In this document: piece after piece, positions 25,751 through 64,000 of the stretch
Position numbering within the stretch: the stretch's first letter is position 1
Layout: every line of letters begins with the position of its first letter
NCBI GenBank assembly: GCA_039621445.1
Contig: CP154954.1
Coordinates: forward strand, 40,417,572-40,481,571
Source: Euglena gracilis
Taxonomy: Eukaryota
DNA: 64,000 nt
Direction of reading: 5' to 3'
Translations under genes and position numbers: made by a program
The notes under the pieces: model-generated
The model's input: the letters and a program-made list of their open reading frames with translations, nothing else
Databases searched by the model: none
Told to the model about the DNA's origin: nothing

Positions 25751-26289
25751 GCCAACTCCGGCAACAAAAAACAGTAAGAAGCACCCCCCGCGCACGCACA
25801 AACACACCAGAACAGAACAGCCGGCAAGGAAAGCAGGACCTCACCATCTCGCAGTGCGGAGCCCGAATGGTCCGCATTGCCTGGCTTGTTTGCTGAGGCC
25901 TGCCCCCCCCACCCAAGGCAGTACGGGAATCGGCGAAACAGCCACGGTCGACCCCCCCTGCATGGTGTGAAAAAGTGGAAAAGTGTGTGAAAAAGTTTTC
26001 GCACTTTTTTTGAAATAAAAACGGAAAAACTTACACCCAAAATTATGCCGGAATTTTTGTTGTTCCCGGACCCCCCCCCTCAGTCTGAAAGGGGGAGGGT
26101 GATGGTCTGGACCCCCTCCCTCCAAAGGGGTCGGACCCCCCCTTCCACAAAAACGACTGCTCACTTGATGCTGGTCACACCCAATCATGCCCAGTCATTT
26201 CATAGGTGCTTGCTTGGCACATCTTGGTGGGACCATGTATTCACTTGGTGACACCCACTTTTTCCAAAAACCCACACAGGCACGACCCC

Positions 26290-41530: not shown

Positions 41531-42121
41531 TTACACCTATTACCATGCCCCCCCCAGTTAGTCACCCCCCCTCAAGAATTGGGGCAGGGGGCAAAATTTG
41601 GGCATAAATTGACCCCCCCCCCGAGTTAATCACCCCCCCCCTGTTAGTCACCCTTGGCCAAATTCCCCTCCCAAGGGGGTGACTAACTCGGGGGGGGGGG
41701 GCACGGTAGTACAACTATATTCATGTCTATGTCTATGTCTACATCCATATCCATATCTATATCTACATCTACATTTCTATTTACCATGCCCCCCATATTG
41801 TACCCCCCCCATAATGTACCCCCCCCATTGGATTGACTGTGTATGGTTTCGATCGGAGTGACCATGGACCATGACCTTGGCCCCCCCATATTGTACCCCC
41901 CAGAAAATGGCTCCCAGGGGGGGTACAATATGGGGGGCATGGTATATCTATATATCTATACCTATATCGATGCACATATATAATCCCTAGGGCTTTATTT
42001 TTGGGCCACAGGTGATTTCACTATTAAACCGGCGTTTGGGACGCTCGGTTCACGACAGAACCGCCGCCTCCCCCCCCCCCCCACGGACGCCGGTTCTGTC
42101 CCCAAAAAAGGGGCTAGGGAC

Positions 42122-42612
42122 CAGGGAATTTCTTAAGGACCCCCCGGGGGGGGTCCAGCCTCCGGCTGGCAAAAAGGCTGCTGGCTGGATTTGAGCTGCT
42201 GGCTGGTCCCCCCCCGGGGGGGGGGGGAGGGGGGGTCCGGGGCTGGAGCGGGCTGGGCTGGGCTGGGTCGAGGAAAAACAAAATTTTCTAACTCATTTTG
42301 GCCATTTTCGACATTTTGATGGGTGGAGCTAGATCAAGGCTGGGGGGCTGTAATGGAGGGGCTGTGATGAGGGGGAAAAATGCAGGGATAAGTGAGCTGG
42401 ACAGCCCAGTTGGCTGGCCGGCCTGCGGCCGGCCGGGCCGGCCTTCGGCCGGCTGGCCCGGCCTCCGGCCGGGCTGGACCCGACTTTATTTCACTCGACC
42501 CCGGGGGGGGGGGGCTCCCAGCCCGAATTTGGGCTGCTGGCTGGATTTGAGCTGCTGGCTGGCTGGACCCCCCCCGGGGGGTAGGGTACCCTCCAGCTTA
42601 AGAAATTCCCTG
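42122..42612. mobile_element. hAT-like MITE
   Basis: TIR CAGGGAATTTCTTAAG with 8-bp TSD CTAGGGAC (42114-42121 and 42613-42620). Confidence 0.9.
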
Positions 42613-44475
42613 CTAGGGACGCCGGTTCTGTCCAAAACCTGGCGTCTCTAACGACGGCTTGGTCATTCCTAAAAATGTCACCAAAACTGCCCCAAAATGG
42701 CCATGAGGTCCTGATATGACTGTTCTAACCATGTGGCACAATGAAATTTGACATTTGGGGACCACTTGGGTGGATACCCAATTCTGGCAAAAATTGGTGC
42801 TGCTTTGGAAATAGAGCACCATGCAGCGTGGAAAAATCTGATGACCACCACTGATCGTCTGTTGAAAAGAGCTTTCGAACGAGGGGTAACTTGGTATCCT
42901 AACGTTGCATGCAACACGAGATACGCTCGCAATCGTCGGATCGGCCAGAATATGAGGCGAAATTTGTGGTGATTTTTGGTACTGTTTGGTTGATGAACCA
43001 CACAGAAATGAGTTTTTTCTTCGAATCGACGGCCTGAGGGGTTTAGGGGGATAAAAGAATTTGTGAAAGCAGGACTTCCCAATGACATGAAACAAGAGCA
43101 CTGTGCAGCGGGCTGAACTTGGTAGTGATCACTACCAACCCCCCTCTATTTGCCCCCCCGCCTAATTGGCCAGAGCCCAGGTGGCCAATTAGGGGGGGGG
43201 GGTACTCATTTCAAGGGAAAATGCCTTTGTTCGGGTGTTTTTCGGGGGTTCATGACTAAAGGACGGGGTCCAGGTGGGCCAATTAGGGGGGGGTTAGGGG
43301 TAACCCCCCCTAATTGTCCCCCCCCCTAATTGGCCAGAAGGGGGGTCCGGGCCGCCCGGAGGGCGGCCAAATAGAGGGGGGGGGTTGGTAGTTGTCTGAT
43401 GAAATGAGCTTTCAAATGAGGGGTGATTTTGTACCTGGACGCTTGACACAGCCAGAGATACGCTCGCGATCGTCGGAATTGGGCGAAATGCAAAATAGCG
43501 TGACATTTCAGATTAGTGGCCGGTGATTGGTCCTGCGAGTGCCCTTTGACCGAAGGTTGGGGAAGCCGGTTCTGTCGTGAACCCGGCATCCCTAAAGCGC
43601 CGGTTTAAGAAAAGGGGTGGCGAACGCCGGTTCTACCGTGAACCCGGCGTCCCCGGACGCCGGGTTCATGGCAGAACTGGTCTCCGCCACCCCTTTTCTA
43701 ATATATTGGAGGCACCATGCCCCCCCTCCCCCCGATAGTGTCCCATACCCGGCCCAACAGAGACTATCGGGGGGGGGGACACTATCGGGAGGGCATGGTA
43801 TTTGAAACTTTGGATTGGTCTAAAAAGGCCGAAATTTGACCCAGGCCAACAAAACCTCCAAGATTGCCAAAAAAAAAAGCCCAGAAAATGGTTTTTCATG
43901 CCCATGTATTGAAACCGTGTCCAGGGGCTCCGGGTTCACGCCCGAATTGGCATCTGGGACGCCGGTTCAGTTGAGAAATTTCTGCACCGAACCGGCATCC
44001 AAGACGCTGGTTCGGGCGTGAACCTGACGTCTGGGGGACCCAAAATTAAAAAAAAAAATGCCCAAAAGTGTCCAAAATGGTTTGTAGACATGTGGTAAGC
44101 ACATCTGAGCAGTTTTTTTGGGGTCTTTGGTCAGGAATTGAGGTCTTTCTACAACGATTTCCCAACTCTTTAGCCAACTCTGGGGAATTTTTCAAATAGA
44201 GTTCCAAGCAGCACAGCTTAAAGTCATGGCCAAGTTACGGCCTCAAGGGCTGCTGAAAGCCCTTGTGAACAGCTTTCGATCGATGGGCAACATGGCAGGT
44301 GCACAGTGGAATTTTGAATTTTTAAACAGGGTCGGAACATGCGATTGCCGGTTTTCTACCCATAATGGTAGTAGTTTATTAAATTATTAATAGGGTAGCT
44401 TATTAAAACCTATTTCCTGGGCCCGACGCCTGTCTTGAATTTCTACAGACACTAGCGGATTTCAGGCTGAATCCG

Positions 44476-44668
44476 TTAGTGTAAAACGATTTCCAAGACA
44501 GGTGTTCGTTAGTGTAAAACGATTCCCAAGACAGGCGACCGTTAGTGTAAAACGATTTCCAAGACAGGTGACCGTTGGTGTAAAACGATTTCCAAGACAG
44601 GCGACCGTTAGTGTAAAACGATTTCCAAGACAGGCGATCGTTGGTGTAAAACGATTTCCAAGACAGAC
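44476..44668. repeat. 33-bp tandem repeat x6 (GTTAGTGTAAAACGATTTCCAAGACAGGCGACC), preceded by an inverted degenerate unit
   Basis: Directly visible, with no unique spacers. Confidence 0.92.
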
Positions 44669-44737
44669 AAAAAAAGGTCCTAAAAAGGCAAGATGTGAGG
44701 AGTTAACAAAACACAGGTGAGGCGGTGGTGCTGTTGA

Positions 44738-45001
44738 TCACGATGGACGTGGAAACGAAAGGGGGGACCCCGCAACCGGGACACAAGGCGGCCAACAGAT
44801 GCACATAATGTGCGAGCTGCACAGGCAGCTGAAAACGTGGGAACAACGAACCTTGCATTGCAAACATTTGGAGACCCAGTCGGCCACTCCCCGAAAAATC
44901 CCGTTGCCAATTGGCCCGCTGCCAAGCGCCTTTGAAAACAGAGTCACAGTGCGAAACAAAAAATCATTCTCGCCTGAGGCGGAACTGGTGGTTCCACGCA
45001 A
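44738..45001 (-). pseudogene. Possible tyrosine-recombinase (Crypton-like) catalytic-domain fragment
   Basis: DFLFRTVTLFSKALGSGPIGNGIFRGVADWVSK resembles the hFh...P-h-G-x-x-x-h segment before box II. It sits next to the GGCCCGACGCCTG end motif shared with 50546. Confidence 0.35.
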
Positions 45002-46875
45002 AAGCTCGCACTGCCTTTCAAACGCCGCAATGGCGCAAACGGAAGGGTCTGGGGTGTGCGACCCCCACCCCTGAAATCGGCCCGATTTTGGCGGTTCTAT
45101 ACCTTATGCTTCCAAGTGTCCGAAAATCCCCCCCTAAAAAAGCCTGTCCCCTCCCACAAAAAAAAGTCAACAAAGGTGTGAGGCAAGGGCTTTACGGAAG
45201 GGATTATTTTTTTCATACATGCAATTTTGTCCTTGTGAACCATCATGAAACAAATGTTAAAAAAACATTCCCACAGAAATGGAAAAAAATCATAAATTAC
45301 ATTTTTGTTCTTGATGTTTTTGACCATTTTTTTTGGCAGTTTTTGAACTTAGGGGTTAGGGGGGAAGCGGGGTCGTCCAACTCGAGTTGCGGCCATTTTT
45401 CGGCCAATTTTGAGCACATTTCTGGGGCCATTTTGGGCTGTTTTCGGGGTCAAAGAATCGATGTCTCCAAAATATCTCGAAAACGAAGCAAAAAAAATCA
45501 AAGGAAATGTCCAGAGACCTAAATTGAAGCCCTTAAAATGCCCTATCTAGCGATATTTTGAGTTCCCCGAAACTCCCTGCCAAGCACGAATTATCCCGGC
45601 CATGTTCCAAAATTTGATACATTACACCTAACACCTGAATATTTTGCACTCCACACCGTATATTTTTGCATTTCCGGTCAACCTTTTGCACTTTATCTCA
45701 AAAATGTTTGCATTTTATCTCAAAAATGTGTTTTGCACAGTCGCCCTTAAGTCCGCGTCTAAGGCGCAGGGACTCGGAACGGAGTCTGCGCCTAAAACGA
45801 CTTCGGGCATGAGGTCTATGTTTTAAGACGCAAACTCCGTCCAAAATACTGCGCCTTGAATGATGATTTTGTTGGAGCCCCCCAGAACCAGGGTTGACGT
45901 TTTTTTTGTTTCTTTTTTTAAAAAAAACAAAAAAACATGTTTTTATTAAAAAAAATGCAAAAAAGAATGTTTTTTTGAAAAAGCAAAAATTGACCTTTTT
46001 CCTTGCGAACTTGCCATTTTTTTTGCGGAAAAATTTTTGGGTGTGGTTCGGGTCACGGGGGGGGGGGGTCACGGGGGGTCACGGGGGAACATCAGGGCTG
46101 CATAGAGGTAGAGGTGGAGGTCAAGGCCTCTACCTCTATGTCAACCACCTCTACCTCTACCTCTACCTCTACCTCTATGTCACCTCTATGTCTGTAAAAT
46201 GTACCAAAATGACCTCAAAAAGGGTCATAAAACACCCCACCTGCTCGGAAAATGGCAATTTCGCATGAAAACACATGAAAAATGGCGAGGGGATGAGAAA
46301 CAATATGTGGGTTGGTGATTTTGAAAGTTGTTGGCGCAGTTATGTGACCACATTGAGCAATTCTGAAAACCTTTCATGCATTTCTCCTTTGCTTGCACAA
46401 AAATTCCTTTATCGAGTCATTTTCCTTTGGTTTTTGACACAGAGGTGACATAGAGGGATAGAGGAGGTTGGAAAACCTCTACCTCTACCTCTACCTCTAC
46501 CTCTATCCCTCTACCTCCATGCAGCCTTGACCACATTTTTGATGGCCAAATTAGGAATCACCGAAAACAAATTTTGTGTCAAGAACTGTGTTTGGGCCAA
46601 GAGTTAGGGGGAGCCCAGGGGCAGGGACCGCGGCGCCTTCGGCGCCGCGGTCCCCGCCTCTGGGCCCCCCTAAAACCTTGGCCCAAAACACTGTTCTTGT
46701 TTGAAATTGTGTTTTGGGCGAAGATTTAAGACTTTTAAAGTCTCGAAATCGGCCCAAACACGGTTTCTTGGGGGAAAATCCTTTTTGGCTCCAAATTAGG
46801 AATCCCCCAACCTAAAATTAGTAGTATTTGACACCAAATTAGGCATCACCAAAATTTATGTCTCAAAATGAGGAA

Positions 46876-49800
46876 GGCGGCCGAATTCGCACTTAAGATT
46901 TTTCCTTTTGATGCGCGCAATTGCGCAAATTTACAATTTTTTTGTAACCCCTGGGACCCTGTACCCTGACAGCCAGAACACGATTTAAGAACTGTTACAC
47001 CCATCTATTGGAGGGGATTAACTCCCAGTGGTCTGGTGTGCATGCTGCTTACCAGGTGACGTTAATAGGACGGAGGGTGAGACTGGTGCTGTTGTACATC
47101 AAACCGGAGAGAGGCACACACCCCTTGTGACGACACTTGGAAACGGTGCTGACGTGCTGCCTGAACTGGCTTGGATACTGCCGCCACCGGTGAGAACACA
47201 CTGAGTCTCACTAGATAACAACACCACAGGCACACGGACTACGTGAGCCAGTCATCACGCAATTGATGTGTGTTTATGGGCGCAATTGCGCAAATAAAAC
47301 AATTGTGTTTGATGCGCGCATTTGCGCAAATAAAACGTCCACCGATGATGATAAAATGACGTGTTTATGGGCGCCAGTGCGCGCACCAACAAATTTGTTT
47401 ATGTGTGCATTTGCGCAAAAGCGCACACCACCAAATGCGTTTGATGTGCGCATTTCCGCCCACCAAACATGTACGTTTTCCTTCCATGCAGGGGGGGGAA
47501 ATGCGCTCGCCCGGCCTCGGAAAAAATGCGCAAAAATGCGCAAAAATGCGCAAAAATGCGCGAAAAAATGCGCAAAAAATGCGCATTTTTGGAAAAAATG
47601 CGCAAAAATGTGCAAAATCCGAGAAAAAATGCACAAAAATCACGAAAATGCAAAAATTACCCAAACACATGCAAAAATGGCACCAAATTTGAAGAAATTA
47701 TGTAGAATAATGAGGAAAATGAAAGTTTCAAAAAAAAAGTCGAAAATTTCAAATTTTTGCAAAAAAAAATGCAAAAATGGTCAAAAAATGCAAAAATTTT
47801 GGAAAAGCACGAAAAAATGTGCCAAAAAGCAAAAAAATGCGCTGAAAAAAAACGAAAAAATGCGCAAAAAATGCGAAAAAATGCGCAAAAATGCGCATTT
47901 TTGGAAAATTTGAAAAAATGCACAAAAAATGCGCAAAAATGCGAAAAAATGTGAAACGCATTTCCCCCCCTGCTTCCATGTTAAAAGACACCAATAAGGA
48001 CCATGAACTAGAAGGTTTAAAAACGTGATGGACGTGTTGGTGCGCGCAATTGCGCAAATAAAGACACTTTTGTTGATGCGCGCATTTGCGCAAATGCGCG
48101 CATCAACACGTTAATAAACCGCTTCAAAATGATGTGTTTGTAGGGCCCTTAGAGCACATAAACAAAGTTTGTTTATTTGCGCAAATGCGCCCATCAAAAC
48201 ACATCAGTTGTGGGATACCATCTCCTGCTCCGTGACGGCTGGCGAACACAATTCCTCACGCCAACCATTGATTTGCACCAAGATTACATGGTGATGAAAT
48301 TGGTGGTGAGAGGCAGTGTGGAGTGTTCACTGGAACACGGCATCTGACTGGCCAAGATTTGCCTGCCTTACGTGTGTACATGTGCACTGCTGTTCCCCGG
48401 CCCGAACGGCCTGTTGCTTTGGCGTCATGCGTTTGGCAATTAAATGTAATGAAATGATGACGTGCAAACGACCTGTGACTGTTGAACACCTTTTGTGCAA
48501 CAAGACTGCGTTGCAAGAAGTCAAAATTTGGCACCTGAAACACCCGGGACGTGTCGGGCCGTAGTCCGTTTTATGGTTTTCTTTGCCATTTTTCCCTTGA
48601 AAAATGGAAAAAACACCGGTTTTTGTGCATATTTTGGGGGGAAGTGGGTCCCACCGCTTTGATACGACCAATCCAGTGGTGGTGGTTCACCACTTCCTTG
48701 TACCCAAAGTAACGGGTGTTTGAGGGCCACCTCTCTCCAGCTGTTGGTTGCCATGCACTGGCACCACGTCGTCCCCCCAGTCTTACACCCCGGTGGCGGG
48801 GTATAACGTGGCCGCTGTGGTGGGTGCCGTTGCACCGGGGAGGTCGATGCCGGCCTGCTGGGTGCTGAAGCATCAGCAGCTGATGGGGCTGCAGCGGCGG
48901 AGCCGAAGCCGCAGGCCAGCCGCAGGGCCCTTGGGAACCAAAAAATTGGTGCCGGTGGACGTGCACCGTTACTGGGTGGCTGTGCACCCACCATCAAAAG
49001 ATGCCATGTCTCCATCTTTTGCCGGGCCTGTCGATGGTCCAAAAACGGCACCGTAACACCATATCCTGGAGGGGACGGTGTAGTCATTTGGGTTGAACCC
49101 ACTCAGAAGCCACTAAGGGTGGCTGTAGGAGCACCAAAGGAATTCACTTATTACTCCTCCATTGGTGGTTTATTTGCGCATTTGCGCGCATCACGTTGTT
49201 TTATGGACGCAAGTGCGCAAATAAAACAGATGTAAACTGAACAATTTACATCTGTTTTATTTGCGCATTTGCGCCCACAAACAACGTGATGCGCGCAAGT
49301 GCGCAAGTAAACCACTTCCGCTGTCGGCGTTTGACAGCTGTGTTTTTGTCACACCGTTCTTCTTTGCGTTCATTTGCGCAAATGCGCGCATCAAACACAA
49401 AACATGTTTGTGCGCGCATTTGCGCAAATGCGCGCATAAAAATGTTTTGTGTTTGATGCGCGCATTTGCGCCCATAAGCTTGCGCGTTGACAGACAGTGT
49501 GGCAAACCCACCAACTGGATGGCCCGTCAGTCCGTGCCGTCACGGCCTCTTTGTCACACCTTTTATCAGCAGCGTCAGTTCGTGGGTACCAAAGCCCAAT
49601 CCTTGAAGGATATGTTTATGTTGATGCGCGCAATTGCGCGCATCAACATTAACATGTTGATGCGCGCAATTGCGCGCATCAACATAAACATGTTGATGCG
49701 CGCAATTGCGCGCATCAAACGTAATTTTGTCCTTCCAGTGTTGGGCTTCTTCTGCAGGGTTCTTTGCCACACCACTGGTTGTGTGGGTCCTGGGTTTAAG

Positions 49801-50397
49801 TCGCGTGGGAGACACCCGTCCCCTTTATTCCCTTCATTCCCTGCGGACCCCGCTCCTTCCCCCTCTGCGCATCCCTTCCCAAACACCCCACACTCATCTT
49901 TCTTCCCCAGCGTCCTTCCCGCCGGCTCGGTCACACCACACCCACACCCCCCGGACCTTCCTCCCTGCACTTTAACAAACAGCTCAAAAACACCACACCC
50001 AGGCGCCGCAAGCAACGCAGTCCGGCAAACACCCAGGACGCACACCGCCGGCAGCTCGGGCACACCCGGGGACACAGCCGAAAGAAGCAAAAAGGGCCAG
50101 TAAAGGTCCCGTTCCTATGGTGCTTTTTTGCGTTTTTTTCAGGGTGGGCCGGCAGGGTCCCGTAGGTTTGGGCCCACAAAGTCCTTCCCGACACCCCCAA
50201 AAATCACTGTTTTTCGCCAAAGTCCCGGGGGTCTCACAACCAAAATCAGAATTTCGATCATTTTTTGCACTCTCTTGTTGCCGTGTTTTCAAACCCCCCT
50301 GACCTTCACAGCCGAAACAGGACACAATCAAAAAAATTGTAAATTTGCGCAAATGCGCGCATCAAATGAAAAAAGCTTAAGTGCGAATTAGGCCGCC
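46876..50397. mobile_element. 3.5-kb TIR element (possibly PIF/Harbinger-like) rich in TGCGCGCA/TTGCGCAA palindromes
   Basis: About 65-bp TIR GGCGGCC(G/T)AATTCGCACTTAAG...TTGCGCAAATTTACAATTTTTT with flanks GAA and TAA. No transposase was recognised. Confidence 0.75.
47489..47972. mobile_element. hAT-like MITE with internal AAAAATGCGC repeats
   Basis: TIR CAGGGGGGG(G)AAATGCG with 8-bp TSD CTTCCATG (47481-47488 and 47973-47980). Confidence 0.9.
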
Positions 50398-50776
50398 TAA
50401 GTACCTGAATATTTTGTCAAATTAGGCATCACCGGCAAATTTTTTTCAGAAAAAATTGGCCGAAATGGGTCTTAAGTCGGGTTGGGGGGGGTCACGGGGG
50501 GAATACCCCCTCTAAAGTTTTTTTGTGTTATAATCGTGGACTGAGGCCCGACGCCTGCCCTGTATATCGTGGATTGGAACACGAAATACAGTGCAGGCGT
50601 TGACCCCCCTGGCGCCTGCCCTATATTTCGTGGACTCAGTCCACGAAATACAGGGCAGGTGCCGGGGGGGGGGGGGTCAACGCCTGCACTGTATTTCGTG
50701 GACTGAGTCCACGAACATCAGTGCATGGTTTTTGCGGACTGGATTTTTTGACATATTACTACTGTCAAAGAGATAC

Positions 50777-51583
50777 TCAATGCAAATCCTTGCCTTTGTA
50801 CTTCACAATGAGCAGAACACAAAAAGAATGCTTTAGCCACTGAAAAGGGGACCCAACGAAGTGGCTAGTGAAACCGCTAGTGCTGTTTCCAGATTCCACA
50901 AAAGAATCAACCTCCAGTCTCCGCAGAACCTCTGGGCGGTAGCCTGTGCAGAAACCCAGAATAAAAATGGGCCTCAAAGGGCTTTGTCCAATCCACTTCT
51001 CACAACACCCGTGGCAACTCGTCGTCCTGTAAAATTTCATGGGGGGGTGCACAGCCTGGTTTGCCGCTTTTTTGGTGAGTTCACGGGTGTGGGCAGACGG
51101 AAAGAACCGCGGGAACTTTGAAAACTGGGAGTTGGAGGAAGGCACCGCTTGGGTTTCTGGCTTGATTGAGGAGTATGCTCGTCCCACGGCAGTCAGGTAG
51201 CCGCGGAAGGAGGATGCTTTCACTGTGATGGCGCTGCATCTTTGACCGGCCTGTGCACACCGTTGATCCCACAGTTGCCTGATTTGGGCTGTGCCGTCAA
51301 CCAACAAACTGGGATCAATCATCCAGCCAGCACTGGCAACAAAAAAGTCATCCAGATCATCATACACTGCCTATAGGTCCTGACACAGTTGATGGAAATC
51401 CATCAGATGTGCCAAGGCACAAATCCAGCTGGCTTATTTGCTGTTGCTTGTTGGAGCAAAGTCCCGTGAACTGGATCGACGACTGGTGTTTTTTTTGTCG
51501 TCGATGATTTTCTCCAACACGGCCAAAAATTCAGATGTTTTCGGGGGACGAGGGAGTATGATGATAGCCGCGCGTTTCGCCAT
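50777..51583 (-). pseudogene. Tyrosine-recombinase-like protein, N-terminal part to box I, with two in-frame stops and 3' truncation
   Basis: The ATG at 51583 is in frame with ORF 50777-51367: MAKRAAIIILPRPPKTSEFLAVL...SSFRGYLTAVGRAY...FILGFCTGYRPEVLRRL (GxRxxxLxxL, box I-like). It is homologous to ORF 59048-59755. Confidence 0.6.
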
Positions 51584-51822
51584 TGGTGCAGAAAAGCAAC
51601 TGGAAAAAGAACATTGTTTCAGTCCACGAAATACAGGGCAGGCATTGCCCCCCCCCCCCCCCGGCGCCTGCCCTGTATTTCGTGGACTGAGTCCACGAAA
51701 TACAGGGAGGCGCCTCGTGGACTGAAAACTTTGATTTTTTTTGTTAAAAAAATGCTGCTAATTTGATGCGTGAAGCCAATCAACGATATACAGGGCAGGC
51801 GTCGGGCCTCTTAGTCCACGAT

Positions 51823-51939
51823 TATAGAAAAAATCGTGGGTGTAACCCGTATACGGGCCGTATAACGGGTCATGGGCGCCTGCGGCGCCCATGACCCGTT
51901 ATACGGCCCGTATATGGGTTACACCACGATTTTTCTATA
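51823..51939. repeat. 117-bp near-perfect hairpin, apex GGCGCC-TGC-GGCGCC
   Basis: The arms differ by about one substitution and two single-base indels. The loop is 51881-51883. Confidence 0.95.
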
Positions 51940-53074
51940 GAAATATTTCCAACTCTGTGTTTTCTGGTGCAAAAAAATCATGCTTCAACCCCCCCAAAAA
52001 AAAAACAAAAAATGAATGCTGCAGAAATAAAAAATGAACTTGTCCTAAAAAAACATTCCAAAAATTTTCTCCCAAACCCTCAATGACGTTTTTTGTTTTT
52101 TTTAAAAAAAACATATTTTTTTTAAAAAAACACATTTTTTCTGTTTCAAAAAAAACCCCGTCAACCTTGCCCAGAACCGACCGAAATGGTTCAGAATGCA
52201 GAAATGAATGGTTTGAAGCGGAAATGTCATTGCTGCAAAAGCCGATTGACCTCAGAATTTGGCCCACTTCATTCCAACCGTTGACAAATGAGTTCCATTG
52301 GTTTGTTTTGAGCCGTTTTGAGCTTTTTTTTCCAAATACAATTCGGTGTTGATTGACAATAAAACTCCAATGCCAACATGTGGTATTGAGAAATATCAAA
52401 GACAGGAGTTCTTGGACATTTTCCGCATACCAATTTCTGGCTTTGGAGTTTGAGCATTCATTCATGGTTGTGGAAAACCTTGACCATCACAAATGCGCCT
52501 GAAATGGCAGAAAACCAGGGCAGCAGACTGGGGGGGGTGCGGGTAGTTGGCCGATTAGTCGGCCGACTACCCACTCTGATGTACTAACGCGTCCAAACAG
52601 CCAACTTTTGAGCCCCCTCCCCCCATGAAGGAAAACCTATGCAAACCAGTCGGTGGTTAATCGGTGGTCATAAAAATGGTCTGTGGCGGGCCCAAATCAC
52701 CCGGAAAAATGGTCCGGATGGGTCCAAATAAGTGTCTTACGCCCAAATGAACACCCCCGGATGGAAATCTTTGGTCGGTGAGGGGTCGGTGGGCCCTTGA
52801 TGGGGGTCTGGAGGGGTAAAAAACCACTCATGAAACAACGACTACCACCTCCCCCCCCCTAATTGACCTAAAAGACGACCTAATGGGACCTCTCCACGGG
52901 ACCCCCCTTTTGGTCAATTAGGGGAGGGGGGTTCAATTGGGGGAGGGGGCGTCAATTAGGGGGGGGGGGACCGTCAAGTAGGGGGTGCTTCAGCACAGAA
53001 TCCCCCGGGCAGTCAATTAGGGGGGGTCGAAAAAATTTTCCCCGGGACGTTTGGTCAATTAGGGGGGGGGAGTC

Positions 53075-53135
53075 GCTGAGCTCTTATCTCTTTAGAGTAA
53101 GAGCGAAGCTTACCACCCCGGCGACGGGGGGTCCG

Positions 53136-53190
<55 letters not shown>

Positions 53191-54997
53191 CCCCCCCCCC
53201 CTGGGTAGGTCCGGACACCCGAGGATTATCGATGTGATTGAATTTCCGGACCTGAAAAGTTAATAGCCTATAGGTTAGGAGAGGATTCCCTAGTTTCTAA
53301 CGAGCCCTCATTTCGCCCCTAACTCTCCGCCAGTCCGGAGATATAGCCCGAGCAAAAAAAGTTGTCTACCGTTTTTTTCCAAAGAAATTTTGTTGGACCG
53401 GCAACAGGGGTCATTTTTGGGGTCAAAAAATCGAAAAATTCGAAATATCTCGAAAACGCTGGAGAGTTGAGAAAAAGTGAAAGAGTGAAAAAGTGAAGAG
53501 TACCTCATTCCACAACTTTGGGACGCCCTATCCACCGGTATTCGCAGTTTGGGCCAACTCCCCGCCTGGCCCGAGATATGGCCGTTTTTCGGTAATGCCG
53601 TTTTCGGTCCCAAATGGCCGTTTTGTACACTTTTCCCACTGTCCGACTTAGCCGTTTTCGCGGCCAAAAAGTCGAAAAAAATCGAAAATTTTTTTTTCCG
53701 CCCCCAAAACCATGTTTTTTTGGCCTCCTGGACCCGGAAAAAGTGTTTTTGAGCCGAAAACGAGCGTTTTTCGACCCGCCAGGGCCCCGTTTTGGTTGGC
53801 CAACCCATTGACTTTGGGTCAAAACCGGGTCAAAAAAGTCGAAAAAAATCGAAAATATTTTTTTGGCCCAAAACGATGTTTTATCGCTGAGCTCTTATCT
53901 CTTTAGAGTAAGAGCGAAGCTTACCACCCCACCGAGGTTATCGCGGGAGCTCTTATCTCTTAGAGTAAAAGAGCGAAGCTACCACCCCACGCCGGGGAAA
54001 CCCTTATCTTCTTTAGCGTAGAGCACCCACCCCCCCCCACCCCCCCCCCCCGCCCCCCCCCCCCCCCCGCCCCCCCCCCCCCCCCCCCCGCCCCCCCCCC
54101 ATGGGTAGGCCCGGGCACCCGCGGATAATCGATGTGATTGAATTTCCGGACCCGAAAGGTTAATAGCCTATAGGTTAGGAGAGGGTCCCTAGTTTGTCCA
54201 GAGCCCTTAGGTTGCCCCCAACTCCCCGCCAGGCCGGAGATCTAGCCCGAGCAAAAAAGTTGTGTACCGTTTTTTTTCCAAAGAAAGTTTGTTGGACTGG
54301 CAACAGGGGGTCATTTTTGGGGTCAAAAAATCGAAAAATTCAAAATATCTCGAAAACGCCGGGGAGTTGAGAAAAACTAAAGAGTACCTCATTCCACAAC
54401 TTTGGGACGCCCTATCCACCGGTTTTCGCAGTTTGGGCCAACTCCCCGCCTGGGCCGAGATACGGCCGTTTTTCGGTCCAAATGGCCGTTTTGCGCACTT
54501 TTCCCACTGTCCGACTTAGCCGTTTTCGGGCCAAAAAGTCGAAAAAAATCGAAAAAAATTTTTTCGCCCAAAACCATGTTTTTTGGCCTCCTGGACCCGG
54601 AAAAAGCGTTTTTGAGCTGAAAATGAGCGTTTTTCGACCCGCCAGCGCCCCGTTTTGGTTCGCCAACCCATTGACTTTGGGTCAAAACTGGGTCAAAAAA
54701 GTCGAAAAAAATCGAAAAAAAATTTTCGCCCAAAACCATGTTTTTTGGCCTCCCGGACCCGGAAAAAGCGTTTTTGAGCTGAAAATGAGCGTTTTTCGAC
54801 CCGCCAGTGCCCCGTTTTGGTTCGCCAACCCATTGACTTTGGGTCAAAACCGGGTCAAAAAAGTCGAAAAATATCGAAAAAATTTTTTCGCCCAAAACCA
54901 TGTTTTTGGGCCTCCTGGACCCCGGAAAACATGTTTTTGAGCTGAAAATGAGCGTTTTTCGCCGGCCGGGCCGGAATGGTCCCCCAAAGAGCTCAGC
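53075..54997. repeat. Tandemly duplicated unit of about 810 bp with GCTGAGCTCT ends, poly-C tracts and about 162-bp internal tandem repeats
   Basis: GCTGAGCTCTTATCTCTTTAGAGTAAGAGCGAAGCTTACCACCCC at 53075 and 53886, inverted AGAGCTCAGC at 54988-54997, and AAACCATG recurring at 54571, 54733 and 54895. Confidence 0.85.
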
Positions 54998-56323: not shown

Positions 56324-59047
56324 ACCCCCCCCCCTATTTGGCTAATGGTCGGGCTCCTTCGGACCCCCAATTAGCCAATTAGGGGGGGGGGGACAATTAG
56401 GGGGGGTTACCCCGGCCAATGGCCAATAAGCCTGACCCCCCCCTAAGTGGCTAATGGACCGTCCAACGGGACCCCCAATTGGCCAATTGGGGGGGGGGGG
56501 CAAATAGGGGGGGTGAGGGTACATTAGAGTGGATAGTCAGCCGACTAGTCGGCCGACTACCCACTACCCCCCCCCCCCTTCTCGCCGACTAGCTACCGAC
56601 CAATGGGTCGGCCGATTTGTCGGCCGACCAATTGGGTAGTCGGCCGACTAGTCGGCCAACTACCCACTACCCCCCCCCCCCAGTCCACCGTCTGGCACTG
56701 AAAGCCAGCCAAAAATGGCTCAAATGGCAGAATTTTGCAAATTATTTTCAATTTTTTGGGTTTTTGATGGAAGCTGCCCACATAACAGTGGGTTTCTTTG
56801 CCAAAAAATCATCACACTACATCACGTCGCTGTGTCTCTCCCTTCTAACATTGAGCATACCACCCCCCTTATTTGACCCCCCCTTAATTGAGCATTTGGG
56901 TCTGGGGAATTTTTTTCTAGGCACTGAATTTTTTTTGTCTTTTCTTAAAGCCAAATTTTCAACCCCCCCTTTTGACCCCCCCTTTATTTGAGCATTTGGG
57001 GGGTCCTTAAGCCCGTGGGTGTGCTCAAATAAGGGGGGGGGGGTAACAAACACCCAATGCGCTTCTTTGAGCAATAGTTTTTTTGCAATAATTTTGGGCA
57101 TTTTTGGAATTTTTAGGGCAAATTCATGGTCATAATGGCTTTTTTGATGTCATGTTCAATCCAAAAATCTTTTCATTCAAATATGAAGGAAAATGACTCG
57201 AAACCCACCCAAATGCCTTCACAAACCCCCATTCGCCCACACCCCGATACGCAAACCCCAATGAACCCCGATATGCGAACTTATCGGCCTACGGCCTCCT
57301 CCGGGGGGGGGGGGCTTCTGCCCCCCCCGGATCCCTCCATTCAAATATGAAGGAAAATGACCCAAAAGCCACCCGAATGCCTTCAGAAAACCCCCATTCG
57401 GGGGTCCATTTGCAATTTTTTTTCGGCAATATCTTCTTTTTGTGCCAGATTTGCGAAACTTGGGGGGGTGTCTGGGACGCGGGGCAGGGGGGGATAATTC
57501 ATATCGGAGGCCTTCGGAAAAATTGCGAAAAATTGCGGAAAAATTGCGGAAAAATTGATATCGGGAATATACACATTTCTGCTTGAGGGGACTTAGAAAA
57601 TTTTCAATTGTGAGGTTCAGAACACCGCAACACCCACGTCGATGCAGGCGAGCACAAATCAACACGCTTGAAGTTCTATGCACAGGTAGGAATCACCCAA
57701 TCACAACCTTGTGATAACCCTAACCCTGTGGGGGGTAGATCTCCTGGGGGGGGGTTGTGGGCCGACCCTAGGGTCGGCCCACGGTCGCCAAAGGTTGCCA
57801 AAGGTCGCCCAAGGAGCCGTCCGGGAGACCCCCCCTAGTGGGCCGACCCTAGTCGCCGGCTTAGGGTCGACTTAGGGTCGTGGGCGGCTCATTGCGGAAA
57901 ATTGGCCGTGGAACTTTTGTTGGTCGCTAGCGACCGGTCGCTAGCGACCGCGACCGTTGGTCACGGTCGACCGACCATTGGTGGTCGGAGCGACCGGTCG
58001 CTAGCGACCGGTTGCTACCACCAAAATTTCGACCCCCCCCCCCTTCATAAAATTTTTAAGCCCCCCCCCCCCCAATAGGATTTTATTACTGCAAAACGAT
58101 GCTACCAGGGCCAGGCGCGCATGTAATGCCACGCGCAGTGAACAAACAGTCCTAAGGCGCCTTTGGTCGTCTAGCGGGGGGGGGGGCTGCCGCCCCCCCA
58201 GCACCCCCCGCACCCCCCCCTCCACCCTCCAACAACAAAATCCCCTCTGGGGGGTAACCGACCCAGGGCCATGCGCGCATGTAATGCCACGCGCACCGTA
58301 AACAAAACAGTCCTAAGGCGCCTTCGGCCCCCTTGGTCGTCTAGGGGGGGGGGGGGGGCTGCCGCCCCCCCGCACCCCCCCGCCCTCCAATAACAATTTT
58401 TTTTGGGCTTTGGCACCAAACGAAAGTGGCCACTTTGAGGGGGGGGTAAAGCAAATTTGACAAAAAATTTTGGCCACTCTGAGGGGGGGGTGAGGGTAAT
58501 GCCACCCCCCCCCCCCCCGGCTGCCGCCCCCCCCCCCCCCGTACCCCCGTACCGCCCTCTTGACAAAGTAACGTAAACATTGTCTGATATCGTGCAAGAT
58601 CCAGGGGGGGGGATAATTGATATCGGAGGCCTTCGGAAAAATTGCGGAAAAATTGCGGAAAAATTGCGGAAATTGCGGAAAAATTGCGGAAAAATTAAAA
58701 CCGTTAACCGTTCACGGGCTTCCCCACGTGAGGAAACGGGGTGCGTTCACGGGTGCGCACTACGGCACCCGTGAACGGACCCCGTTTTCACATATGCGCA
58801 CCCGTGGTCGGTTCACGGGTGCACAGACGGCAGCCGTGGACGGAATTTTGCCTTTAAAAAAAGGGAAAAGATTTATGCAGTAGGGAAGAGGATTTGAAAC
58901 AAATGGCGAACCTGGTGAACTTGAGGGGTGGGGGCAGGAATGCAAGAGGTGGCATAGGGAACTGACACGCGGCAAACTAAATTTCGGTGCGAGGCACATG
59001 CTCGCGATGCCTTTCGGCATGGTCAGAGGAACAACAGGACGGATAAC

Positions 59048-59755
59048 TCAACGACAACCCTGACAAATCCACGCTTTTTTCGGCGCGCGACGCAGCTCAG
59101 CACACACAAAATGATACGTCTCGCCACAAACGGAACAACGAACACTTTTGGCTGCACCCACATCCGTGTCACTAAAAGCCTCCATTGCTTTTTTGGCCCT
59201 TTCGTGCGTGACGAGTGGCTTCATTAACGCATTGAACTGCGGGAACTGGGACACAGACGATGGTACAATGATGGCATAAACGGGAGCCAATGCCTTGTAA
59301 ATGTTGCTTACAGCATTTACATAGGTCCGAAAACTGGACACTGGCATGGAGCGAAGGCGCCCATCTTTTCCTACCTTCTCCTGCCTTGTCTGGACCCAGG
59401 CATCGGCTTCCTGCTGCGTCTTGAAAACTTCACGAGCATCAACGCACCATCTGGCCCATCCCACCAAAACTTCGTCCAAAGAGCTAAAAACAACGCCATG
59501 CCGGTTGCAAACATCCATATACCCCAAAAAACACTTTACTGCGGCATGGTTCTTGGGGCCCAAGTCACAATTTTGACCACCGGTGGGGAGACTGCCAAAA
59601 AGGGCATCCACTGCAGCAGCTCCTAGGGAGCCGGCACCACGTAAAACAGCCAGAAATTCATCTACGTTGGGGGGGCGGGGCATCTGTGCTTCCATCATGT
59701 TGGTAAAACGCTTCATCGGACTGTGGGGAAAAGCAGCAGAGAGACAGAAACACAA
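59048..59755 (-). CDS. Probably internally deleted YR-like N-terminal domain fused to a partial PHD finger
   Basis: MPRPPNVDEFLAVL, SSFRTYVNAVSNIY and VPSSVSQFPQF match element A. The C-terminus CSVCGETYHFVC...WICQGC supplies the last six ligands of a C4HC3 PHD. The real start is probably one of the Met codons near 59698. Confidence 0.65.
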   Translation of the reverse strand: MCFCLSAAFPHSPMKRFTNMMEAQMPRPPNVDEFLAVLRGAGSLGAAAVDALFGSLPTGGQNCDLGPKNHAAVKCFLGYMDVCNRHGVVFSSLDEVLVGWARWCVDAREVFKTQQEADAWVQTRQEKVGKDGRLRSMPVSSFRTYVNAVSNIYKALAPVYAIIVPSSVSQFPQFNALMKPLVTHERAKKAMEAFSDTDVGAAKSVRCSVCGETYHFVCAELRRAPKKAWICQGCR

Positions 59756-60000
59756 ATGTAAAAAAAACCCAAAAAATTCAAATTCCGATCACGGGTAACA
59801 CCTTGCGCAACCGTGGTCGGTTCACGCGTGCACGCACGGCAGCCGTGGACGGAAATTCCGTTCACGGGTGCGCACTACGGCACCCGTGAACGGCCAAAGT
59901 TCACCCGTGAACGCCAAAAACGAGATTTTTGACCCCCTAGGCATCTCGTTAGGAAGCGCTTGCCTACTGCGAGGAAGCCCGTGAACTTGGTTAACGGTTT

Positions 60001-60108
60001 TAAGACAAAAGCGGGGTCCGATCACGATTCCCGGTGGAGAAACGGGGGGCGCCTACGGCGCCCCCCGTTTCTCCACCGGGAATCGTGATCGGACCCCGCT
60101 TTTTCTTA
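60001..60108. repeat. 108-bp near-perfect hairpin, apex GGCGCC-TAC-GGCGCC
   Basis: The arm AAAAGCGGGGTCCGATCACGATTCCCGGTGGAGAAACGGGGGGCGCC is followed by its exact reverse complement. The loop is 60054-60056. Confidence 0.97.
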
Positions 60109-60984
60109 TAGATATCGGGTATACACATTTCTGTCTGAGGGGACTTAGAAATTTTTCAATTGTGAGGTTCAGAACACCGCAACACCCACGTCGATGCAGG
60201 CGAGCACAAATCAACACGCTTAATGTTTTTTGCACAGGTGGGACGCACTCAATCCTGTGACCAGTGGTGCACCTGTGAGAAAAATTGGTAAACTGGGGGG
60301 AAAAAACAACAAAACACAATAGCACACCTGTTGATCCATTTGAAGAATGGCTTGAACTCATTGCATCTTCCATCTTCGGTGGTGGGAAAAAATTTCTGCG
60401 GAAAAAAAATGGGGAAAAAATTGCGGAAAAATTGCGGAAATTGCGGAAAAATTGTGGAAAATTGCGGAAAATTGCGGAAATTGCGGAAAATTGCGGAAAT
60501 TGCGGAAAAATTGCGGATATCAATTTCCCCCCCCCCTGAAGATCCTAAAAGCAGAAAAAGAAATTTTTGATATAAAATTTCATGGCTTTCTCTGGGGGAA
60601 TTTTTTTTTTCACAGGGGGGGGCTTAAAAATCTTCTGAGAGGGGGGAGTGGTCGAATTATTGGTGGTCGCTAGCGACCGGTCGCTCCGACCACCAACGGT
60701 CGCTAGCGACTGGTCACCAGAATTCGGTCGCTAGCGACCACCAAAAGTTCCATGGCCAATTTTCCGCTCGGAGCCGTCGTGGGCCGACCCTAGGGTCGAC
60801 TTAGGGTCAGCCCACCCCACAACCTCCCTACCCCCCGTTCCAGGATCTGGCCTGGGGGCGAGCGGGCCGACCTCAGGGTTGGCCCACGGTCGCCAAAGGT
60901 CGCCAAAGTGAACCACAAAAACAACTTAGCCCCCAAGTATGTTGCCAACATGGAAGGGAATTTGTTCTTTCCCTGGGTGCCCTG

Positions 60985-63900: not shown

Positions 63901-64000
63901 AATTAGTTGGGTTACACAAGGGATTTGCCCCCCAAAACGGGTGGGTAACACAAGGGATTTTGTAATTTTGGGGCCTTCGAACAGTTGGGCAACACAAGGG
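60985..64000. repeat. Satellite array of mixed 33-bp and about 46-bp subunits with an inverted central block (about 62184-63348)
   Basis: Units GGGTGGGTAACACAAGGGATTTGCCCCCCAAAAC and TTTTGTTATTTTGGGGCCCTCGAACAGTTGGGCAACAAAAGGGAT. The array runs off the window end. Confidence 0.97.

What the first reader, a model, noticed from the sequence alone, without database searches (positions are those of the whole stretch)
51811..51940. The internal IR/hairpin junction looks like a YR core site and mirrors the predicted circle junction
In element A the a'-B junction is CCACGATT-ATAGAAAA-AATCGTGG (51816-51839): inverted 8-bp arms around an asymmetric 8-bp spacer, the geometry of loxP/FRT/dif-type sites. 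Joining the element ends at the shared TATA gives CCACGATT-TTTCTAT-AATCGTGG, essentially its reverse complement. Element B behaves the same way (CGGTTT-TAAGACA-AAAGCG near 59995-60012). An excised circle would therefore carry one long palindrome a'-B-b'-A. Inference: a single-stranded circle could fold into a stem that creates a double-stranded att site, as in CTXphi attP or integron attC, and one strand exchange in that stem would give the integrated layout seen here.
Basis: partly seen in the sequence, partly recalled or inferred. Interest (0 to 1): 0.85.

Follow-up and report, generated by a model that had tools for sequence, protein, structure and literature searches.

The report
Internal circle junction of recombinase transposons
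The site is the point where an inverted repeat meets a terminal hairpin inside a small, high-copy mobile element that carries the remains of a tyrosine recombinase gene, an end layout known from DIRS retrotransposons but not described for recombinase-only transposons.

Summary
The motif is at the stated coordinates. It lies in element A (50529-51939), built as left arm, remnant tyrosine recombinase (YR) gene on the minus strand, inverted copy of the arm, then a 117-nt terminal hairpin.

Elements B (58697-60110) and D (42026-43703) have the same layout with different sequences. In 3 of 3 elements the joined ends equal the reverse complement of the internal arm/hairpin junction, apart from 3-4 nt (ATA/TATA) at the joint.

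B's ends are fixed by an empty-site copy in the window and by contigs from four public runs that skip exactly 1414 bp. B has no target duplication.

The ORFs are N-terminal parts of a protein family. A full-length member of that family, modelled at pLDDT 89.7, matches Cre recombinase over both domains.

The loxP-like 8-8-8 geometry is not conserved: A 8/8, B 6/8, D 5/8, and 29% of random window positions reach 6/8. What is conserved is the junction sequence: internally TAAG or ATAG followed by A4-6, and T4-5-CT(N)ATA at the right end.

My reading is a Crypton-like, YR-only transposon family with a DIRS-style internal circle junction. Neither a single-stranded folded intermediate nor a circle junction was shown.

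The parts
50529..50532 (+). Element A: left terminal TATA, a direct repeat of 51936-51939 and the candidate crossover repeat
50533..50706 (+). Element A: left arm 'A', with the terminal inverted repeat and six copies of a ~22-bp iteron (TTTCGTGGAC type) in alternating orientation
   Evidence: 50529-50706 pairs with 51826-51619
50849..51583 (-). Element A: decayed tyrosine recombinase gene. It holds the N-terminal domain and the first conserved Arg box, has an internal stop, and lacks the C-terminal catalytic part
   Evidence: tblastn with P0011 residues 1-255 and P0018 residues 87-280
51619..51822 (+). Element A: internal arm a', the inverted copy of the left arm
51816..51839 (+). Element A: the reported junction, 8-nt inverted arms around ATAGAAAA. 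This is the a'/hairpin junction and the internal complement of the joined ends
51823..51939 (+). Element A: terminal hairpin (B arm, loop TGC at 51881-83, b' arm). Apex GGCGCC-TGC-GGCGCC; base TATAG-A6 paired with T5-CTATA
58697..58850 (+). Element B: left arm. The terminal inverted repeat is 58697-58723; GTTCACGGG-type iterons follow
59048..59755 (-). Element B: 235-aa ORF made of the recombinase N-terminal domain (residues 1-192) fused in frame to a C-terminal PHD-like finger. The catalytic domain is deleted, with the breakpoint at 59178/59179
   Evidence: loose ends at 59178/59179 in all 4 runs; P0144 carries the C-terminal PHD
59776..60001 (+). Element B: internal arm a'. Its last ~30 nt (59973-60001) are the inverted copy of the left end
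60002..60107 (+). Element B: terminal hairpin. The stem is perfect over 47 bp (60007-60053 / 60057-60103), the loop is TAC and the apex GGCGCC-TAC-GGCGCC
60108..60110 (+). Element B: terminal ATA beyond the hairpin. It is absent from the empty site and from the internal junction, and is the candidate crossover trinucleotide (the left flank has ATT at 58694-96)
57497..57702 (+). Empty-site paralogue of B's insertion site (...AAATT|GATATCGGG...)
   Evidence: (D20: 57568-57702 matches 60120-60254 at 92%), (joints 58693-58696 to 60111; loose end at 58696)
42026..42073 (+). Element D: left terminal inverted repeat (ATT|AAACCGGCG...)
43555..43606 (+). Element D: internal arm a' ending ...CGCCGGTTT
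43607..43703 (+). Element D: terminal hairpin (arms 43608-43652 / 43655-43699) followed by AATA; the right end reads TTTTCTAATA
44405..45049 (.). Element C, truncated. It has the left end ATT|AAAACC, a 33-bp iteron array (44470-44670), and a recombinase C-terminal remnant on the minus strand (45049-44795) that abuts the arm

Best explanation
Identity. The site is the internal circle junction of a family of small transposons whose only gene is a tyrosine recombinase, i.e. Crypton-like elements. Each element is laid out as left arm A, recombinase gene on the opposite strand, inverted arm a', then a terminal hairpin B-loop-b'. Because a' abuts B, the a'|B junction is the complement of the two element ends laid side by side.

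State of the copies. The window copies are non-autonomous or decayed. A lacks the catalytic C-terminus, B has an in-frame internal deletion, and D has no recombinase.

Inferred mechanism. The element passes through a circle whose b'|A joint carries a short AT-rich crossover sequence (ATA or TATA). The recombinase exchanges this with an AT(T/A) target. That leaves the short repeat at both ends and no target duplication.

Role of the internal complement. It most likely acts on a single-stranded or fold-back intermediate. It would either hold the two ends together, as the DIRS internal complementary region is thought to do, or supply the second strand of the recombination site. High copy number argues for a replicative route.

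The 8-8-8 motif. The loxP-like repeat in A arises because A's terminal iteron (ATCGTGG) also sits at the hairpin base. It is specific to family A. The part shared by all families is the junction sequence itself.
For: Shown:
- Three elements share the architecture with unrelated arm and stem sequences.
- Nine stem pairs keep pairing through changes on both sides in the three-way alignment.
- The right end T4-5-CT(N)ATA is identical in 3 of 3 elements.
- Joined ends versus the reverse complement of the internal junction: 35/42, 30/34 and 30/35 identical.
- B's borders: an empty-site paralogue, contigs in X1-X3 that skip 58693-58696 to 60111, and 48-52 loose ends at 58696 that continue as the empty site.
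- The same comparison fits a 3-nt crossover. ATT occurs once in the empty site, and ATT...ATA flank the insert.
- The hairpin has about the same depth as the element interior, and the flanks are about 10 times deeper.
- One contig (X1 record 6, 59976-60085) spans the junction and the apex.
- Folded as single-stranded DNA, B pairs nt 1-34 with the end of a', directly next to the hairpin.
- Recombinase identity: 216 homologues; the AF2 model has pLDDT 89.7; Foldseek's top hits are Cre (E 2e-7, TM 0.65-0.69 on target length), then Xer, Tn1549 Int and IntI.
- Conserved residues in the 55-sequence alignment: R234 48/52, K267 33/39, R362 21/21, Y392 17/20.
- Single-gene content: the ATG lies 36-60 bp from a' in A and B, and in C the end of the ORF abuts the left arm.
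- Contigs carrying full-length homologues are 1.6-3.2 kb long.
- High copy number: about 12,000 contigs per run were laid on 1.66 kb.
- A canonical DIRS-like element in the same window (21247-25872) shows the same internal-junction logic.
Against: - No circle junction, single-stranded form or excision product was seen. Only 15 of 50 joints were displayed, and contigs drop rare forms.
- No intact autonomous copy is in the window, so the full-length layout is inferred from three broken copies and from protein contig lengths.
- In B and D the internal junction lacks the ATA that sits at the joined ends, so the mirror is not exact.
- Pfam Phage_integrase hits stay below the curated cutoff (best E 0.012, 3 of 10 proteins).
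- A PDB sequence-profile search found no recombinase.
- The recombinase call therefore rests on a predicted fold and on conserved residues whose catalytic roles I assign from memory.
- The crossover model rests on one empty site (B) plus the flanks of A, C and D.
- A purely double-stranded route would need no internal complement and cannot be excluded.
Confidence: 0.6

Rival explanations
1. A single-stranded circle folds so that b'A pairs with a'B. The recombinase recognises a loxP-like arm-spacer-arm site in that stem. One strand exchange with the target, resolved by replication, gives the integrated layout, as with CTXphi attP or integron attC.
For: - The topology works. Cutting the folded rod at the b'|A joint yields exactly A-gene-a'-B-loop-b' (geometry; fold).
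- A one-base bulge (A6 against T5) sits next to the junction in A. It is also present in the majority form of B, because 60006 C>A is the commoner letter in X1-X3 (table 3).
- In B and D the terminal ATA would be looped out opposite the internal junction.
- High copy number fits a replicative mode.
Against: - The arm-spacer-arm geometry is present only in A (8/8). B scores 6/8 and D 5/8, which is no better than random positions.
- D has no A/T-run bulge (A4 against T4).
- There is no evidence of any single-stranded or circular form.
- No eukaryotic precedent was found in the papers I searched.
Confidence: 0.2
2. The element follows an ordinary double-stranded circle pathway, as proposed for Cryptons and known for integrative elements. 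The recombinase acts on the duplex b'|A joint. The A/a' repeats and the hairpin serve other ends, such as arm-type binding sites, a promoter upstream of the gene, or a cruciform. On this view the mirror junction is a by-product with no role of its own.
For: - The short direct repeats at the ends and the lack of target duplication fit the Crypton description (PMC3212892 and PMC8969392, passages).
- The iterons in both arms look like protein-binding sites.
- The hairpin and a' lie just upstream of the recombinase ATG.
Against: - It does not explain why both ends are duplicated in complement and lie contiguously in three unrelated sequence families.
- It does not explain why a 47-bp perfect palindrome is kept.
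- It does not explain the very high copy number, whereas Cryptons are described as generally low copy (PMC8969392, passage).
Confidence: 0.25
3. These are non-autonomous riders on the DIRS-type retrotransposons of the same genome. A transcript is copied by a DIRS reverse transcriptase supplied in trans. The internal junction works exactly as a DIRS ICR to rebuild the ends and circularise the cDNA. The element's own or a DIRS recombinase then integrates it.
For: - A canonical DIRS-like element with RT, a Dam-like methyltransferase, a recombinase and an ICR lies in the same window.
- DIRS-1 RT acts in trans and the ICR is essential for its retrotransposition (PMC7192593, passages).
- Members of this family are transcribed: one cluster member is named as a transcript.
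- Every terminal base is present twice, the redundancy typical of retroelements.
- Copy number is high.
Against: - No sequence similarity was found between the arms of A, B or D and the DIRS-like element.
- The recombinases are not detectably related (hhalign probability 1.3%).
- The ends of A, B and D are not inverted repeats of each other, unlike DIRS ITRs.
- No poly(A) tail, intron loss or other RNA signature was examined.
Confidence: 0.15
4. The hairpin is a separate palindromic miniature element that landed next to a transposon with terminal inverted repeats, or the arrangement is an assembly artefact.
For: - A/a' alone look like terminal inverted repeats with TATA at both sides.
- The genome is full of palindromic repeats.
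Against: - The same abutment occurs in three families with different sequences.
- The empty site shows that arm and hairpin entered as one 1414-bp unit.
- Hairpin depth equals interior depth rather than that of an independent repeat.
- Independent assemblies of four runs cover the junction.
Confidence: 0.03

Closest known systems
DIRS-1-type retrotransposons: inverted terminal repeats plus an internal complementary region, the 'internal circle junction' (Cappello 1985 recalled by title from a reference list; model read as passages of PMC7192593)
   Same: - A contiguous internal segment is complementary to both extremities laid side by side.
- There is no target duplication.
- A short AT-type tri- or tetranucleotide sits at the ends.
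- A tyrosine recombinase is encoded.
- Copy number is high.
- A textbook example lies in this same window (21247-25872, ICR 21627-21731).
   Different: - There is no reverse transcriptase, RNase H or methyltransferase, and no room for them.
- The two ends are not inverted repeats of each other.
- The 'ICR' is the whole of a' plus one hairpin arm, and it directly adjoins the right end, so the right end is a hairpin.
Cryptons: tyrosine-recombinase-only DNA transposons (PMC3212892 and PMC8969392, passages)
   Same: - The recombinase is the single gene.
- Short direct repeats at the termini look like crossover substrates.
- There is no target duplication.
- A circular intermediate is presumed.
   Different: - Cryptons are described as having neither terminal inverted repeats nor long repeats, and as being low copy.
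- These elements have 30-200-bp inverted arms with iterons, a 100-117-nt terminal hairpin, an internal circle junction and thousands of copies.
loxP / FRT / dif core sites
   Same: In element A only: perfect inverted arms around an asymmetric 8-bp spacer.
   Different: - The arms are 8 bp, against the 11-13 bp quoted for recombinase sites (PMC3212892, passage).
- The geometry is absent from B and D.
- Binding and cleavage are untested.
CTXphi attP(+) and integron attC folded single-strand sites (recalled, not read here)
   Same: A recombination site could be formed by intramolecular pairing. The predicted stem carries small bulges next to the joint. The integrated copy would hold one arm at an end and its partner internally.
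   Different: No single-stranded form has been shown. The host is a eukaryote. The stems are far longer, and the crossover point lies in the middle of a long rod rather than at a short forked stem.
Helitron2 / Helentron ends: asymmetric terminal inverted repeats plus hairpins (PMC8969392, passage)
   Same: The 5' end pairs with a subterminal 3' segment that is followed by a terminal hairpin. There is no target duplication.
   Different: The encoded protein is a tyrosine recombinase, not Rep/helicase. B inserted between T and G, not upstream of a T with a 5' T terminus.

Membership tests
Tyrosine recombinase superfamily | Two-domain Cre/Xer/Int fold (core-binding plus catalytic domain) | tested here: met
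   The AF2 model of homologue P0011 has pLDDT 89.7 and pTM 0.82. Foldseek against the PDB returns 53 hits at E<=0.001. The top hits are Cre (E 2e-7, ~400 columns), followed by XerA/XerH, Tn1549 Int and IntI. The window ORFs align only to the N-terminal half.
Tyrosine recombinase superfamily | Catalytic R-K-H-R-(H/W)-Y set | tested here: inconclusive
   Conserved in alignment A3: R234 48/52, K267 33/39, K357 17/19, R361 18/21, R362 21/21, H385 8/17, Y392 17/20. I assign these to the catalytic roles by recalled motif pattern, not by superposition. Pfam Phage_integrase stays below its cutoff, and the PDB sequence-profile search found nothing.
Tyrosine recombinase superfamily | An intact enzyme is encoded by the copies in this window | tested here: not met
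   A has a stop and lacks everything after about residue 280. B lacks the catalytic domain, with the breakpoint at 59178. D has no homologous ORF. C keeps only about residues 280-372.
Crypton | The recombinase is the only gene; there is no reverse transcriptase | tested here: met
   No RT was found in A, B or D. The gene fills the space between the arms: the ATG is next to a' in A and B, and the ORF end is next to the left arm in C. Contigs carrying homologues are 1.6-3.2 kb long. The full-length layout is inferred, because no intact copy was seen.
Crypton | Short direct repeats at the termini, no target duplication | tested here: met
   A has TATA...TATA; B and D have ATT...ATA. B's empty site holds ATT once.
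Crypton | No terminal inverted or long repeats; low copy number | tested here: not met
   The elements have long inverted arms and a terminal hairpin. About 12,000 contigs per run were laid on B.
DIRS-like retrotransposon | RT/RNase H (with or without methyltransferase) together with the recombinase | tested here: not met
   Pfam and tblastn find none in A, B or D. The DIRS-like element at 21247-25872 has them.
DIRS-like retrotransposon | An internal complementary region matching both extremities contiguously | tested here: met
   Met in 3 of 3 elements; the fold of B agrees.
DIRS-like retrotransposon | Left and right terminal repeats inverted with respect to each other | tested here: not met
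   Only 7-8 nt are shared between the two ends in A, and nothing convincing in B or D.
loxP/FRT/dif-type core site | Inverted recombinase-binding arms around a 6-8 bp spacer, conserved in related elements | tested here: not met
   A 8/8, B 6/8, D 5/8. Of 3000 random positions, 1.6%, 29% and more than 70% respectively reach these scores.
Folded single-strand recombination site (CTXphi attP, integron attC) | A single-stranded substrate exists and is the recombining form | not testable with these tools
   Only contigs were available. No back-joint across the ends was among the 15 joints displayed, and 35 more were hidden.
Helitron2/Helentron | Rep/helicase protein and insertion next to T | tested here: not met
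   The protein is a recombinase. The insertion lies between ...ATT and GAT....

The most novel reading that the evidence does not exclude
A eukaryotic, recombinase-only transposon family multiplies through a single-stranded DNA intermediate, circular or fold-back. Its two ends are brought together on, or recombine within, a stem formed with the internal complementary junction. That would be a eukaryotic counterpart of CTXphi/integron-type single-strand recombination. It would also show that the DIRS 'internal circle junction' logic belongs to the recombinase module and predates, or is independent of, reverse transcription.
Probability: 0.2. Interest if true: 0.88.

Novelty: new variant of a known kind. 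Interest (0 to 1): 0.6.

Why it matters
Two groups of eukaryotic tyrosine-recombinase elements are told apart partly by their ends. Cryptons have almost no terminal structure. DIRS-type retroelements have an internal circle junction, which is usually explained as a device for rebuilding ends lost in transcription.

Here a recombinase-only element family carries that junction together with a terminal hairpin, at very high copy number. One of two things follows:
- the junction serves the recombinase or a DNA intermediate rather than reverse transcription, or
- recombinase-only elements can ride on retroelement machinery.

Both ideas can be tested in a culturable protist. A cluster member at 90% identity or more carries a Euglena gracilis transcript name. 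The result bears on the proposed origin of DIRS elements from a Crypton plus an RT (PMC6681497, passages). It also gives practical rules for annotating this abundant repeat family: the end motifs, the lack of target duplication, and the hairpin.

Tried and rejected
- No whole genome is held for the window, and the scan holds no earlier notes on it. A word search of earlier findings returned only two unrelated IS91 cases.
- Searches for related loci found none. These were metagenome contigs twice, viral contigs and prokaryote genome contigs. Arm covariation could therefore be tested only on the three in-window families.
- The circle junction was not seen among the 15 joints read laying displayed; 35 more were hidden, and all four runs are contigs, which drop rare forms. 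This is not evidence of absence.
- The window contains no ungapped copy of the predicted joined ends: 36 nt, up to 9 mismatches, 0 hits for A, B and D.
- Pfam on ORF A gave nothing, and on ORF B only a sub-threshold PHD hit. Pfam on P0001 and P0002 gave nothing useful. The PDB sequence-profile search gave no recombinase.
- hhalign of the family against the DIRS-like recombinase of the window was not significant.
- Element C could not be used for the junction test, because no right-hand partner of its left arm exists in the window.
- The palindrome at 46571-46702 (apex GGCGCC-TTC-GGCGCC) shares the apex but not the base motif, and I could not tie it to an element.
- Papers: no paper joining Euglena with Crypton elements (3 listed, none relevant by title and abstract), and none joining Euglena gracilis with tyrosine recombinase elements of this kind (6 listed). 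No paper describes Cryptons with an internal complementary or circle junction (12 listed).
The Crypton terminal-sequence tables of PMC3212892 (its Additional file 1) could bear on novelty and were not seen.
- Cappello 1985 and Poulter & Goodwin 2005 were not read. I know them only through citing passages.
Full report
OBSERVATION

With up to two mismatches it is unique in the window, and shuffles expect 0.02 matches. It lies at the left base of a long hairpin with arms 51822-51880 and 51884-51942, a 3-nt loop and the apex GGCGCC-TGC-GGCGCC. The window looks eukaryotic. It has few long ORFs, poly-C/G runs and many satellites, and no whole genome is held for it.

ANATOMY OF ELEMENT A

The sequence to the left of the motif (51619-51826) is the inverted copy of 50529-50706. 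Both arms are built from a ~22-bp iteron that occurs in both orientations. Between the arms a decayed ORF lies on the minus strand. TATA stands at 50529-32, 51823-26 and 51936-39.

The layout is therefore TATA, A, gene, a', (TATA) B-loop-b' (TATA).

ELEMENT B AND ITS BORDERS

B has the same plan: a left arm from 58697, an ORF at 59048-59755 on the minus strand, an a' arm up to 60001, and a hairpin at 60002-60107 with a perfect 47-bp stem and apex GGCGCC-TAC-GGCGCC.

A paralogous copy of the flanking repeat without the insert lies at 57497-57702 (family D20). It fixes the insert as 58697-60110, which is 1414 bp. The left flank ends in ...AAATT and the right flank starts GATATC..., with no target duplication.

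I laid contigs of four public runs on B. X1-X3 are labelled organism A and X16 organism B. The results were:
- Joints skip from 58693-58696 to 60111.
- At 58696, 48-52 loose ends continue as the empty site.
- Flank depth is about ten times the interior depth.
- Hairpin depth is like the interior depth.
- One contig spans the junction and the apex.
- About 12,000 contigs per run were laid at 90% identity or more.

B is therefore a high-copy insert that includes the hairpin, sitting in an even more abundant repeat. Loose ends at 59178/59179 in all four runs show that other copies continue differently there.

MORE FAMILY MEMBERS IN THE WINDOW

A tblastn search with full-length homologues found a third recombinase remnant at 45049-44795. 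This is element C. Its left end reads ATT|AAAACC at 44405, followed by a 33-bp iteron array. Its right half is missing.

Just upstream lies element D:
- left end ATT|AAACCGGCG at 42026;
- inverted partner ending ...CGCCGGTTT at 43606;
- hairpin at 43608-43699;
- right end TTTTCTAATA at 43694-43703.

D has no recombinase ORF.

THE MIRROR AND WHAT IS CONSERVED

For A, B and D, the joined ends aligned to the reverse complement of the internal junction give 35/42, 30/34 and 30/35 identical columns. Each has a 3-4-nt surplus (ATA/TATA) at the joint. The mirror follows from two inverted-repeat pairs lying side by side. The non-trivial fact is that this abutment recurs in three families whose arms and stems differ.

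The three-way alignment shows nine stem pairs that are kept through changes on both sides, and an identical right end T4-5-CT(N)ATA.

The loxP-like geometry does not recur. Scanning 8-nt arms with 5-10-nt spacers around each junction gives A 8/8, B 6/8 and D 5/8. Of 3000 random window positions, 1.6% reach 8/8 and 29% reach 6/8.

In B the commoner letter at 60006 is A (table 3), so most B copies have A6 against T5, the same one-base bulge as in A. D has A4 against T4.

THE PROTEIN

ORF A and ORF B are homologous (30% identity, E 6e-11), and Pfam does not place them. Word-index search found two relatives. One of them runs on past B's breakpoint into a conserved ...TG.R.E.LRRL box that ORF A also carries.

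A profile search of 1.84 billion representatives found 216 relatives, the longest 400-507 aa. Pfam on the ten longest gives only sub-threshold Phage_integrase hits (3 of 10, best E 0.012). It also finds a C-terminal PHD finger in P0144. That explains ORF B as the N-terminal domain fused in frame to the native C-terminal finger, with the catalytic domain deleted.

A PDB sequence-profile search found no recombinase. An AlphaFold2 model of P0011, built on 55 sequences, has pLDDT 89.7 and pTM 0.82. Foldseek ranks Cre recombinase first (E 2e-7, about 400 aligned columns, TM 0.65-0.69 on target length), followed by Xer, Tn1549 Int and IntI.

Conserved residues fit the recombinase pattern: R234 48/52, K267 33/39, R362 21/21 and Y392 17/20. 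I assign these to catalytic roles from memory. The protein atlas places the family next to ALOG/Phage_integrase clusters of eukaryotes, which I treat as a lead only.

ONE GENE ONLY

In A and B the start codon lies 36-60 bp from a'. In C the end of the ORF abuts the left arm. Contigs that carry full-length homologues are 1.6-3.2 kb long. There is no room for a reverse transcriptase, and none is detected. By content these are Crypton-like elements.

HOW IT PROBABLY WORKS

B's empty and filled sites fit a 3-nt crossover: the target is ...AAA-ATT-GAT..., the joined ends read ...CTT-ATA-AAAACC..., and the product carries ATT on the left and ATA on the right. A has TATA at both sides. D has ATT and ATA. 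C has ATT on the left. This matches the short terminal repeats of Cryptons (PMC3212892 and PMC8969392, passages). It also matches the junction trinucleotide discussed for DIRS elements (PMC7192593, passage).

Folded as single-stranded DNA, B pairs its first 34 nt with the end of a', directly beside the terminal hairpin. The terminal ATA stays unpaired. The two ends therefore sit side by side on a continuous complementary strand. This is the geometry of the DIRS-1 internal complementary region. That region was shown to be essential for retrotransposition, and the DIRS-1 intermediates are mostly linear single-stranded cDNA (PMC7192593, abstract and passages).

A canonical DIRS-like element in this same window illustrates the precedent. 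It spans 21247-25872, carries RT, a Dam-like methyltransferase and a recombinase, and has an ICR at 21627-21731 whose halves pair with 21247-21312 and 25834-25872.

I infer that the internal junction works on a single-stranded or fold-back intermediate and that amplification is replicative. Nothing here shows such an intermediate.

COMPARISON WITH KNOWN SYSTEMS AND NOVELTY

Cryptons are described as lacking terminal inverted or long repeats and as low copy. DIRS elements carry an RT and have mutually inverted terminal repeats. This family has Crypton gene content together with DIRS-style end redundancy and a terminal hairpin.

Three searches of the paper library found no description of such elements or of Euglena recombinase transposons. 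Supplementary tables and two older key papers were not seen. A Helitron2-type reading fails on the protein and on the insertion site.

VERDICT

The recombinase link is supported. The loxP-like geometry is specific to A. The single-strand model remains open. I rate the finding a new variant of a known kind, with interest 0.6.

Noticed in passing
window 21247-25872 (minus strand): A complete-looking DIRS-like retrotransposon. It has RT (22910-25324), a Dam-like methyltransferase (22651-23679), a tyrosine recombinase (about 21780-22471) and inverted terminal repeats (21280-21381 / 25772-25873). Its 105-nt internal complementary region (21627-21731) has two halves that pair with the two extremities. 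A diverged direct copy of the right-hand repeat lies at 20488-20609.
   Followed up: partly
window 58600-58696 and 60111-60260; also 57497-57702: The repeat that hosts element B consists of a (TTGCGGAAAAA)n microsatellite followed by GATATCGGG.... In four public runs it is about ten times deeper than B itself, so it is one of the most abundant repeats of the organism.
   Followed up: partly
window 46571-46702: A 130-nt palindrome whose apex, GGCGCC-TTC-GGCGCC, matches the apex type of the A and B hairpins (loop TNC). It lacks their base motif and has no recognisable arms or recombinase beside it. It may be a solo hairpin or belong to another family.
   Followed up: partly
window 46875-50398: A 3.5-kb block bounded by 70-nt inverted repeats (46875-46944 / 50329-50398, 93%). 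It is filled with palindromic ATGCGCGCAATTGCGC-type units in many orientations, and it ends about 130 bp before element A.
   Followed up: no
window 60900-64000: Arrays of a 112-bp unit (sub-periods 34 and 78) arranged as large inverted blocks, with arms up to 440 nt at 98% complementarity.
   Followed up: no
window 53108-53203 and 54005-54103: Very long poly-C tracts of 60-90 nt interrupted by single G, within a 900-bp direct repeat (53137-53289 matches 54037-54189 at 92%).
   Followed up: no
window 46092-46530: A ~440-bp segment bounded by inverted (CCTCTA)n-type ends (46092-46126 / 46482-46530). It looks like a miniature inverted-repeat element.
   Followed up: no
proteins P0151 and P0152; P0018: Several differently deleted versions of the B-type recombinase occur as predicted proteins or transcripts. 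One is named as a Euglena gracilis transcript. A full-length relative is filed under a carnivorous plant genome (Genlisea aurea), possibly from a protist in the sample.
   Followed up: no
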